Virus record (IMG/VR): IMGVR_UViG_2563366820_000001
Location: 1 to 16,099 of that record
Strand: one strand, 5' to 3'
Length of the DNA stretch: 16,099 nucleotides
DNA from: a virus
Taxonomy: Duplodnaviria; Heunggongvirae; Uroviricota; Caudoviricetes
Made by a program: the position numbers and the translations under genes
The notes under the pieces: generated by a model
The model's database searches: none
The model's input: the letters and a program-made list of their open reading frames with translations, nothing else
Told to the model about the DNA's origin: nothing
In this document: one piece after another, positions 13,390 to 14,046 of the stretch
How positions within the stretch are numbered: the first letter of the stretch is position 1
How the letters are laid out: the number at the start of each line of letters is the position of its first letter

Positions 13390-13418
13390 TTGTCGCAATG
13401 TGGATGAATGACTATAGT
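13390..13418 (+). promoter_or_regulatory. Sigma70-like promoter: -35 TTGTCG (13390..13395), 17-bp spacer, -10 TATAGT (13413..13418)
   Basis: Hexamers and spacing read from sequence, about 45 bp upstream of the membrane-protein gene; prediction only. Confidence 0.4.
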
Positions 13419-13464
13419 GCTGGTAGCTTTGACAGCAGAATCAGATTACTGAAGGAAGTGTGTG

Positions 13465-14046
13465 ATGAGTTTTTTTAGTCTTTATGGGAAAGAACTATTT
13501 TCTTTTTTTATAGCGATATTAACATGGATACTGAATAACAGATTTAAAAGCAAGGCAAAGTTATCCTATGGTTATCAGCATGGATTTACTTTTCTTCTCA
13601 ATGAACCCTTACGGAATGCCAATGGTGAGATAATATCTAATTCACAGTTGGTGTATACACGATCTATTATTCTTGTTAATGAAGGGCGAGAAAGTGCTAC
13701 TAATATATCATTGGTTTTTAACTATAAGCCAATGCATATTAATTTTTGGCCTGTCCACCATTTTGAAGAAAATATTGAGCAGGATGGTCGCTATATTATC
13801 AAGTTTGAAAGTCTTGCACCTGGTGAGTCTATTCAATGTGAAATGTTATCAATAAATAGAGAAGTTCCAAGTATTCTATCGATAAGATCTAAAGAGTGTG
13901 TGGCTGAGCCAGTGAATATCGTAATGCAAAAATCGATTAGTAATATTGCCCTACGTTGCTATCAATTATTAATACTTCTTGGAACTGGTACATTAACATA
14001 TTTAATTATCGTTATTCTGCAATGGTTAGTCACTAAAACGGGATAA
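13465..14046 (+). CDS. Hypothetical membrane protein (193 aa) with one N-terminal and one C-terminal predicted TM helix; AT-rich cargo gene
   Basis: SD GAAGGAAG 6 nt upstream of ATG 13465 (track start is GTG 13462); hydrophobic segments FSFFIAILTWILNN and LLILLGTGTLTYLIIVILQWLV; AT-rich codon usage unlike the backbone. Confidence 0.6.
   Translation: MSFFSLYGKELFSFFIAILTWILNNRFKSKAKLSYGYQHGFTFLLNEPLRNANGEIISNSQLVYTRSIILVNEGRESATNISLVFNYKPMHINFWPVHHFEENIEQDGRYIIKFESLAPGESIQCEMLSINREVPSILSIRSKECVAEPVNIVMQKSISNIALRCYQLLILLGTGTLTYLIIVILQWLVTKTG

What the first reader, a model, noticed from the sequence alone, without database searches (positions are those of the whole stretch)
13390..14046. AT-rich two-TM protein with its own promoter at the start of the cargo block
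This 193-aa protein has hydrophobic helices at both termini and a soluble middle. It is preceded by a good sigma70-like promoter and a strong SD, and its base composition differs sharply from the backbone. It may be an independent single-gene membrane cargo (e.g. an abortive-infection or superinfection-exclusion protein) or a third component of the downstream cassette.
Basis: inference. Interest (0 to 1): 0.5.

Follow-up and report, generated by a model that had tools for sequence, protein, structure and literature searches.

The report
Stand-alone membrane cargo gene in satellite
This is a real single-gene insertion in an E. coli phage satellite that encodes an unnamed inner-membrane protein (two membrane anchors flanking an Ig-like domain); it moves independently of the defence genes next to it and is a plausible but untested new anti-phage factor.

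Summary
ORF 13465-14046 (+) encodes a 193-aa protein with terminal hydrophobic helices and a soluble beta-sandwich. It has a decent Shine-Dalgarno site and 33% GC against a 52% backbone. The promoter match is modest (9/12).

The gene lies in a 728-bp cassette (13368-14095) inserted cleanly into the 3' end of a PICI-type satellite at tRNA-Thr. A sister PICI has 9 bp at that position.

It is not part of the downstream DUF4747/RexAB-like pair. Among 5,426 complete E. coli genomes the cassette occurs in 15, the pair in 13, and both in only 2. Downstream of the cassette one finds nothing, SieB, GapS1, SEFIR or the RexAB-like pair.

Homologues form a large unnamed family: 582 representatives, with no Pfam, NCBIfam, PHROG or PADLOC hit. 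They sit next to att in P2-like phages, in a P4-like satellite, as a tail-module moron, in an integron-like cassette array in Leptospira, and as solitary chromosomal genes. They have no conserved neighbour.

AlphaFold (pLDDT 96) gives TM helix, Ig-like sandwich, TM helix. Charge bias in 86/88 members predicts N-out/C-out with the sandwich in the cytoplasm. No catalytic motif is conserved.

The best reading is a stand-alone phage-exclusion protein acting at the inner membrane. That function is inferred and untested.

The parts
13368..14095 (+). Inserted cassette (728 bp, 33.9% GC) that holds the gene and its own 5' leader
   Evidence: blastn of the window against sister PICI L002: homology runs to 13367 and resumes at 14096, with 9 bp in L002 in place of the 728 bp. 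GC values.
13390..13418 (+). Sigma-70-like promoter candidate TTGTCG-17-TATAGT (9/12)
   Evidence: The number of such sites is not above shuffles. Both hexamers are kept in the E. coli P0002 and Citrobacter lineages. It lies inside the cassette. Function not shown.
13451..13458 (+). Shine-Dalgarno sequence GAAGGAAG; its AGGA core ends 8 nt before the start codon
   Evidence: Read. GGAG/GGAA-type motifs sit at the same distance in relatives.
13465..14046 (+). CDS of the 193-aa membrane protein (stop codon included)
   Evidence: conserved length, dN/dS 0.09-0.27, and annotated as a CDS in RefSeq.
13495..13539 (+). Transmembrane helix 1 (residues 11-25; AlphaFold helix 2-26), followed by the conserved basic stretch R26/K28/K30/K32
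   Evidence: Positions 28, 30 and 32 are polar in 92-98% of 88 relatives; K or R accounts for 55, 77 and 68 of the 88.
13561..13911 (+). Ig-like beta-sandwich domain (residues 33-149), with the NxG...A turn motif (N72 and G74 invariant or nearly so); predicted cytoplasmic
13957..14028 (+). Transmembrane helix 2 (residues 165-188; AlphaFold helix 160-192), with invariant G173 and conserved Y179
13076..13341 (.). Context, not part of the cassette: six AAGTGTCAA(C/G) repeats of the PICI backbone immediately upstream
   Evidence: 6 matches, and none of 200 shuffles reaches 6. Also present in L002, which lacks the cassette.
14096..14275 (+). Context, not part of the cassette: conserved 59-aa PICI backbone gene whose ATG abuts the cassette
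   Evidence: Present with or without the cassette. A 40%-identical 86-aa version is in the Citrobacter PICI.
14607..16099 (+). Context, a separate unit: DUF4747 (RexA-like) gene 14607-15500 and its 199-aa hydrophobic partner 15500-16099
   Evidence: Pfam DUF4747 E=9.5e-98; phrog_10040 and phrog_20580; co-occurrence counts; PMC6426606 and PMC13373217.

Best explanation
SHOWN. The gene is an autonomous, horizontally mobile single-gene cassette (a 'moron') inserted between the repeat array and the 59-aa gene at the 3' end of a PICI-type phage satellite. It encodes a member of a large unnamed protein family with the architecture TM helix, about 120-residue Ig-like beta-sandwich, TM helix.

INFERRED, topology. 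N-terminus and C-terminus face the periplasm, exposing only about 10 and about 5 residues. The beta-sandwich lies in the cytoplasm, held against the inner leaflet by both anchors and by a conserved K/R-x-K/R-x-K/R strand.

INFERRED, function. It is a stand-alone phage-exclusion protein expressed from the resident element. The non-enzymatic cytoplasmic sandwich would bind a phage protein, or a host membrane complex that the phage needs, at the inner face of the membrane after infection begins. The membrane-embedded helices would then either perturb the membrane (abortive-infection style) or sequester the target, stopping the competitor.

How likely. I put about 0.55 on 'phage exclusion of some kind' and about 0.4 on this cytoplasm-side version.
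For: Independence:
- Clean 728-bp indel against a sister PICI.
- Cassette in 15 complete E. coli genomes, DUF4747 pair in 13, both in only 2.
- The commonest form (P0002, hundreds of contigs) sits in smrA-site PICIs with nothing downstream.
- No conserved neighbour in an all-against-all comparison of flanking proteins.

Cargo-type distribution of relatives:
- Next to att in P2-like phages and prophages: Yersinia phage vB_YenM_324, E. coli mntS-mntR prophages, and the circular Pantoea phage-plasmid.
- A P4-like satellite in Erwinia.
- An opposite-strand moron inside a myovirus tail module.
- One cassette of an integron-like array in Leptospira.
- Solitary islets in Serratia and Sphingomonas.

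These are the places where defence genes accumulate: PICI 3' ends (PMC11364771), the att-int region of P2 (PMC13586616) and integron cassettes (10.1101/2024.07.02.601686). The adjacent slot in these PICIs holds RexAB-like, SieB, GapS1, SEFIR or ATP-dependent nuclease genes.

Protein:
- pLDDT 96.4, pTM 0.81.
- K+R in the loop flanks exceeds K+R in the tails in 86/88 relatives, and the N-tail is net acidic.
- No covarying cysteine pair.
- Only N72, P135 and G173 are invariant, so there is no catalytic set.
- Purifying selection.

Against: Guilt by association is weak for single genes. Several relatives sit between housekeeping genes with no defence neighbour.

The TM helices carry no conserved polar face that would suggest a pore.

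The topology comes from the charge rule only, not from a dedicated predictor or an experiment. The closest structural analogues are mostly extracytoplasmic domains.

The promoter is only a 9/12 match.
Confidence: 0.4

Rival explanations
1. Superinfection exclusion at the entry step. The two helices, with their short conserved periplasmic tails (Y7-x-K9-E10 at the N-end, Q186-W187 at the C-end), block phage DNA translocation through the inner membrane, or disable an inner-membrane machine that makes or exposes a receptor. The sandwich serves as a scaffold.
For: Small prophage-encoded inner-membrane proteins are the classic form of this function: HK97 gp15 and P22 SieA (PMC3594210, PMC10883804). 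The gene sits next to att in P2-like prophages. The N-tail motif YGKE is invariant in close relatives, and E10 is kept in 65% of 88.
Against: Almost nothing is exposed to the periplasm if the predicted topology is right. The best-conserved part is the cytoplasmic domain. An entry block would also hinder a satellite that depends on infection by its helper. There is no similarity to SieA, SieB, Imm or gp15.
Confidence: 0.15
2. An accessory gene with a benefit unrelated to phages, for example modulation of an inner-membrane complex, envelope stress tolerance, or immunity to a membrane-acting toxin. Mobile elements spread it because it is a compact self-contained unit.
For: Solitary copies lie between housekeeping genes in Serratia and Sphingomonas. 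The family spans Alpha-, Beta- and Gammaproteobacteria, a Geobacter relative and Leptospira, which is broader than most phage-specific exclusion proteins. There is no defence homology.
Against: Relatives recur in phage and satellite cargo slots that are documented defence hotspots. No toxin gene is adjacent in any context seen.
Confidence: 0.3
3. A satellite life-cycle function such as packaging, helper interference or lysis timing, given its position just after the TerS-like gene and the repeat array.
For: It lies immediately downstream of the HTH/TerS-like gene and six GTGTCAA repeats, on the same strand as the PICI operon.
Against: The cassette is found in 15 complete E. coli genomes, whereas a query spanning this PICI 3' region matched 169, and sister PICIs lack it. 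Relatives occur in complete P2-like phages, integron-like arrays and bare chromosomes. Its composition is foreign to the backbone.
Confidence: 0.05
4. A third component of the downstream DUF4747/RexAB-like system.
For: Proximity and shared strand in this window and in strains SCU-104 and N921. Both are AT-rich.
Against: 13 of 15 cassette-bearing genomes lack the pair, and 11 of 13 pair-bearing genomes lack the cassette. A conserved backbone gene of normal GC separates them. The pair already has its own membrane partner, like RexB and CarolAnn gp43 (PMC6426606).
Confidence: 0.02

Closest known systems
Prophage superinfection-exclusion and moron membrane proteins (HK97 gp15, P22 SieA, lambda/P22 SieB, T4 Imm)
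   Same: Small inner-membrane proteins encoded by AT-rich, self-contained insertions in temperate elements, typically near att or in cargo slots, and presumed to be expressed from the resident element. In sister PICIs a SieB gene occupies the next slot.
   Different: No sequence or profile similarity (no Pfam, PHROG or NCBIfam hit). The architecture differs: two helices separated by a roughly 120-residue Ig-like domain predicted to be cytoplasmic. No function has been tested.
RexA/RexB of lambda and the CarolAnn gp44/gp43 (DUF4747) system
   Same: A membrane-embedded protein in a prophage or satellite cargo region, with a possible abortive-infection logic. The real member of this kind lies 560 bp downstream in the window (PMC6426606).
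   Different: RexB-type partners have four TM helices and need a DUF4747 sensor. The 193-aa protein occurs without any DUF4747 gene in 13 of the 15 complete E. coli genomes that carry the cassette and in all the other homologue contexts examined.
Membrane effectors with a small beta domain (CBASS Cap15, Pycsar TM effectors); recalled from memory, a lead only
   Same: About 200 aa, two TM helices plus a compact all-beta soluble domain, and non-enzymatic.
   Different: In those effectors both helices are N-terminal, the beta-barrel binds a cyclic nucleotide made by an adjacent cyclase, and they are never stand-alone. No cyclase is adjacent here, and there is no PADLOC hit.
Ig-like/CBM2/cohesin/TRAP-beta beta-sandwich folds
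   Different: Identity is 5-16%, with no profile match. The analogues are mostly extracytoplasmic binding modules, whereas this one is predicted to be cytoplasmic and is anchored at both ends.

Membership tests
Moron (independent 'more-on' transcription unit in a phage or satellite; PMC3594210) | Present or absent as a discrete block between otherwise collinear elements | tested here: met
   728 bp in the window against 9 bp in L002, with flanks 95-99.8% identical.
Moron (independent 'more-on' transcription unit in a phage or satellite; PMC3594210) | Base composition different from the surrounding element | tested here: met
   33.9% GC against 52.2% for the backbone and 53.9% for the next gene.
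Moron (independent 'more-on' transcription unit in a phage or satellite; PMC3594210) | Own promoter and own terminator | tested here: inconclusive
   A 9/12 promoter-like site lies inside the cassette and is conserved in three lineages, but such sites are not more frequent than in shuffles. No terminator-like site was found after the stop codon.
DUF4747/RexAB-like (CarolAnn-type) system, as an extra component | Obligate co-occurrence with the DUF4747 gene and its membrane partner | tested here: not met
   Both are present in only 2 genomes, out of 15 with the cassette and 13 with the pair. Other contexts lack DUF4747.
SieB / other named exclusion proteins | Match to the family profile (Pfam, PHROGs, NCBIfam) | tested here: not met
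   No family at E<=0.01 in Pfam, PHROGs or NCBIfam. No meaningful Pfam hit for 88 relatives either; one of the 88 gave a single weak hit to Influenza C virus M2 (CM2, E=0.004).
Any system in PADLOC-DB v2.0.0 (known and candidate defence proteins) | HMM match to a component model | tested here: not met
   No hit at E<=0.1 for the protein and none at E<=0.01 for 88 relatives.
Abortive-infection or superinfection-exclusion protein (functional class) | Reduces phage plating or progeny when expressed alone | not testable with these tools
   Needs phage challenge assays.
Bitopic N-out/C-out inner-membrane protein with a cytoplasmic domain | Two hydrophobic helices, with positive charges concentrated on the loop side | tested here: met
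   Mean K+R is 2.85 after TM1 and 2.09 before TM2, against 0.85 in the N-tail and 0.45 in the C-tail. Loop exceeds tails in 86/88 relatives. Helices appear in both models. This is a prediction, not an experiment.
Integron gene cassette (Leptospira relative only) | Single ORF bounded by attC-like imperfect inverted-repeat sites within an array | tested here: inconclusive
   At least 13 copies of a ~190-nt repeat with GCATAAC...GTTATGC ends follow the genes of L051. One copy folds as ssDNA with z=-4.55. No integrase was seen in the 14 kb held.

The most novel reading that the evidence does not exclude
The gene is the founding example of an unrecognised, widespread single-gene anti-phage family with the architecture TM, cytoplasmic Ig-like sandwich, TM. 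It is shared by PICIs, P4-like satellites, P2-like phages, other prophages and integron cassettes across several Gram-negative phyla. It would work by a mechanism with no described counterpart: a non-enzymatic sensor domain clamped to the inner leaflet by both ends that converts binding of a phage protein into a membrane-level block.
Probability: 0.3. Interest if true: 0.65.

Novelty: new variant of a known kind. Interest (0 to 1): 0.45.

Why it matters
Satellite and prophage cargo slots have repeatedly yielded new immune systems. This cassette is a compact candidate (728 bp, one gene, possibly with its own promoter). It is absent from Pfam, NCBIfam, PHROGs and PADLOC, yet it represents at least 582 sequence clusters and has a very confident predicted structure.

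If it defends, it adds a new minimal membrane-based mechanism. It would also be a clean example of one defence gene moving between PICIs, P4-like and P2-like elements and integron-like arrays. If it does not defend, it is still a well-defined unnamed membrane protein family that merits a family entry.

The analysis also settles the local anatomy. The PICI 3' end has two separate slots, and the DUF4747 pair is a self-sufficient RexAB-like unit.

Tried and rejected
- Profile libraries: Pfam, PHROGs, NCBIfam and PADLOC gave nothing for the protein. For 88 relatives, PADLOC gave nothing and Pfam only one stray hit in one member (Influenza C CM2, E=0.004).
- PDB by sequence profile: nothing at E<=1.
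- The search for related loci with the 88-sequence alignment failed because it had no conserved stretch. With the close alignment it found only near relatives.
I reached the common E. coli lineage (P0013, UniProt B7NAB6) indirectly, through the Yersinia phage gene.
- Literature searches for the protein accessions and for phage vB_YenM_324 returned nothing.
- A conserved disulfide, which would indicate a periplasmic domain, was rejected: C125 and C145 do not covary.
- A conserved polar stripe in the TM helices, which would indicate a pore, was not found.
- Rfam found no RNA in the cassette.
- The terminator-like hairpin at 13709-13734 lies inside the ORF and was ignored.

Full report
**Observation**

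The ORF runs from ATG 13465 to the stop at 14046 on the + strand and encodes 193 aa. The ORF listing starts it one codon earlier, at a GTG. RefSeq annotates the same 582-nt CDS in strain SCU-104.

The gene is 32.5% GC (GC3 25%), against 52% for the backbone on its left and 54% for the small gene on its right. A GAAGGAAG Shine-Dalgarno sequence lies at 13451-13458, with its AGGA core ending 8 nt before the ATG.

It matches only 9 of 12 consensus positions. The region holds no more such sites than its shuffles do, and a better match lies inside the ORF. Its support is indirect: both hexamers are kept in two other lineages of the gene, and it lies inside the inserted block. The description is therefore correct, with the promoter plausible rather than shown.

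The ORF is a genuine gene. Relatives of 49-98% identity have the same length. dN/dS is 0.09-0.27, the same as for the adjacent backbone gene.

**What the window is**

| Coordinates | Feature |
|---|---|
| 1-1254 | proA |
| 1369-1444 | tRNA-Thr(CGU) |
| 1611-2825 | tyrosine integrase |
| 2869-2936 | int-alpA RNA |
| 3944-5017 | AlpA, AntA |
| 6345-8407 | DUF4222, D5-type primase |
| 9954-10789 | ProQ, PerC |
| 11853-12524 | DUF2213 protein |
| 12531-13055 | HTH / small-terminase-like protein |

This is a PICI-type phage satellite integrated at thrW. The same element in strain SCU-104 ends just after the DUF4747 pair, next to the pao genes.

**Cassette boundaries and independence**

I aligned the window with a sister PICI, strain FDAARGOS_1058 (L002). 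Homology runs to 13367 and resumes at 14096. L002 has 9 bp where the window has 728 bp.

The block ends exactly at the ATG of a conserved 59-aa backbone gene. It begins about 25 bp after the last of six AAGTGTCAA(C/G) repeats. The PICI 3' end therefore has two slots:
- Slot A holds this cassette or nothing.
- Slot B lies after the 59-aa gene.

Slot B contents vary between elements:

| Slot B content | Where seen |
|---|---|
| DUF4747 pair | this window, SCU-104, N921 |
| SieB | WGI31CT, 08-00022 |
| GapS1 | K56-43-un |
| SEFIR protein | ZF8-1, a Citrobacter PICI |
| ATP-dependent nuclease | EC11 |
| nothing | smrA-site PICIs carrying the commonest allele, P0002 |

Among 5,426 complete E. coli genomes, the cassette is in 15, the DUF4747 pair is in 13, and both are in 2.

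The pair is also complete on its own. DUF4747 is the RexA/CarolAnn gp44 domain (Pfam E=9.5e-98). Its hydrophobic 199-aa partner corresponds to RexB/gp43 (PMC6426606; PMC13373217).

**The family**

The word-indexed search found only ten full-length relatives. The exhaustive profile search found 582 cluster representatives at E<=1e-3 and 340 at E<=1e-10. Nearly all are 185-205 aa and match end to end.

Named members come from:
- Enterobacterales: E. coli, Citrobacter, Serratia, Erwinia, Pantoea and a Yersinia phage
- Stenotrophomonas
- Betaproteobacteria: Herbaspirillum, Gallionella, Burkholderiales
- Alphaproteobacteria: Sphingomonas, Brevundimonas
- Geomesophilobacter
- Leptospira

All are annotated 'hypothetical'. 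The window protein matches nothing in Pfam, NCBIfam, PHROGs or PADLOC, and 88 diverse members give no meaningful Pfam or PADLOC match.

**Contexts of relatives**

| Context | Example |
|---|---|
| Last gene before attR of a P2-like temperate phage | Yersinia phage vB_YenM_324 gp38, 48% identity |
| Right end, or the att-int end, of P2-like prophages between mntS and mntR | E. coli |
| Between the tail genes and int in a circular P2-like phage-plasmid | Pantoea |
| Within about 1 kb of the end of 31-32-kb viral contigs | IMG/VR |
| Beside the primase of a P4-like satellite | Erwinia |
| Opposite-strand insertion between tape-measure and baseplate genes of a myovirus | metagenomic contig L034 |
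| Other PICIs | L009 and others |
| Next to a Y1 transposase and a DUF2971 gene | Geomesophilobacter |
| One unit of an array of at least 13 single genes, each followed by a ~190-nt repeat with GCATAAC...GTTATGC ends that folds strongly as ssDNA (integron-like) | Leptospira brenneri |
| Alone between housekeeping genes | Serratia, Sphingomonas |

Flanking proteins share no homology apart from PICI backbone genes. The unit of inheritance is the single gene.

**Structure and topology**

With 88 sequences, AlphaFold2 gives pLDDT 96.4 and pTM 0.81. The model has helix 2-26, a beta-sandwich whose strands span 33-141, and helix 160-192.

Across 88 members only N72, P135 and G173 are invariant. G74, P89 and P96 are nearly so. 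H39, N86, W95, R98, R109, E121, R141 and Y179 are kept in 80-88%. These are turn, proline and packing positions. No catalytic constellation is conserved, so the protein is most likely non-enzymatic.

The charge distribution across the family is strongly one-sided:

| Region | Mean K+R | Mean D+E |
|---|---|---|
| N-tail | 0.85 | 1.91 |
| 15 residues after TM1 | 2.85 | 0.26 |
| 15 residues before TM2 | 2.09 | 0.48 |
| C-tail | 0.45 | 0.11 |

The loop side exceeds the tails in 86 of 88 members. Positions 28, 30 and 32 are mostly K or R (55, 77 and 68 of 88). They alternate along the first strand, as expected for a face that sits on anionic lipid. There is no covarying cysteine pair.

By the positive-inside rule (established knowledge), the prediction is N-out/C-out with the sandwich in the cytoplasm. 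This is inference, not measurement. The helices have no conserved polar face. G173 and Y179 in TM2 look like helix-packing positions.

**Mechanism**

Three things are shown: the gene is an autonomous mobile cassette, it encodes a conserved two-anchor membrane protein with an Ig-like domain, and it is independent of its neighbours.

The rest is inferred. The gene keeps appearing in the slots where temperate phages, satellites and integrons keep anti-phage genes:
- PICI ends (PMC11364771)
- the att-int region of P2 (PMC13586616)
- integron cassettes (10.1101/2024.07.02.601686)

From this I judge it most likely a single-gene phage-exclusion protein. Almost all of its conserved mass is predicted to face the cytoplasm. 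I therefore favour action from the inside of the membrane: the sandwich binds a phage protein, or a host membrane complex, and the result is a membrane-level abort or sequestration.

| Reading | Probability |
|---|---|
| Phage exclusion from the cytoplasmic side (favoured) | about 0.4 |
| Block at DNA entry through the helices and short periplasmic tails | about 0.15 |
| Benefit unrelated to phages | about 0.3 |
| Satellite life-cycle role | about 0.05 |
| Part of the RexAB-like system | about 0.02 |

**Comparison with known systems and novelty**

In lifestyle it resembles moron-encoded inner-membrane exclusion proteins such as HK97 gp15, P22 SieA, SieB and T4 Imm. In composition it loosely resembles small two-helix effectors with a beta domain. 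It fails every membership test that could be run, whether by profile match or by co-occurrence.

It is best described as a new, unnamed family that may be a new variant of a known kind of function. Interest is moderate. Many uncharacterised cargo genes exist. This one stands out for its breadth, its very confident and unusual architecture, its clean cassette behaviour across four classes of mobile element, and how easily it can be tested.

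Noticed in passing
window 13076-13341: Six copies of AAGTGTCAA(C/G), one of them inverted, lie between the HTH/small-terminase-like gene and the cassette. None of 200 shuffles reaches six. They are also present in PICIs that lack the cassette. They are probably the satellite's packaging-recognition (cos/pac-type) or another protein-binding array.
   Followed up: partly
window 14607-16099: A DUF4747 (RexA-like, E=9.5e-98) gene overlaps the start of a 199-aa hydrophobic partner. Together they form a RexAB/CarolAnn-type abortive-infection pair. It is found in 13 of 5,426 complete E. coli genomes, nearly always at >=99% identity (PMC6426606).
   Followed up: partly
window 14096-14275, and the region after it in L001-L003 and L042-L045: A conserved 59-aa backbone gene marks the start of a second, highly variable slot at the PICI 3' end. 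In different strains that slot carries the RexAB-like pair, SieB, GapS1, SEFIR, an ATP-dependent nuclease, or nothing.
   Followed up: yes
L051 1-14376 (Leptospira brenneri NPDQ01000013.1): An array of at least 13 same-strand single genes, each followed by a ~190-nt conserved repeat with GCATAAC...GTTATGC ends that folds strongly as ssDNA (z=-4.55). It includes a HepT/MNT toxin-antitoxin pair and a family member at 3780-4376. It looks like a chromosomal integron cassette array, but no integrase lies within the stretch held.
   Followed up: partly
L046 8983-11116 and L047 8983-10640 (E. coli): A second lineage of the family, about 44% identical to the window protein (UniProt B7NAB6 type, hundreds of contigs), sits at either end of P2-like prophages inserted between mntS and mntR. 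In one case it is next to a 470-aa PIN-domain protein.
   Followed up: partly
window 2872-3723: An AT-rich (about 37-41% GC) 283-aa ORF lies between the integrase and alpA, in the 5' accessory position of PICIs. It has no Pfam or PADLOC hit. It is another uncharacterised cargo candidate.
   Followed up: partly
window 8408-9950: A very AT-rich stretch (32-37% GC) downstream of the primase gene contains small ORFs 8784-9131 and 9671-9973 with no family hits. This is the mid-PICI accessory position described for Tai systems in PMC11364771.
   Followed up: no
window 1369-1444 and 2869-2936: tRNA-Thr(CGU) is the integration site. There is an Rfam int-alpA sRNA match (48.4 bits) just after the integrase gene.
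   Followed up: no
L032 17668-20585 (Erwinia rhapontici): The P4-like satellite that carries a family member also carries a SIR2_2 + DUF87 gene pair next to its Ogr/Delta gene. This is a likely defence pair in the usual P4 hotspot.
   Followed up: no
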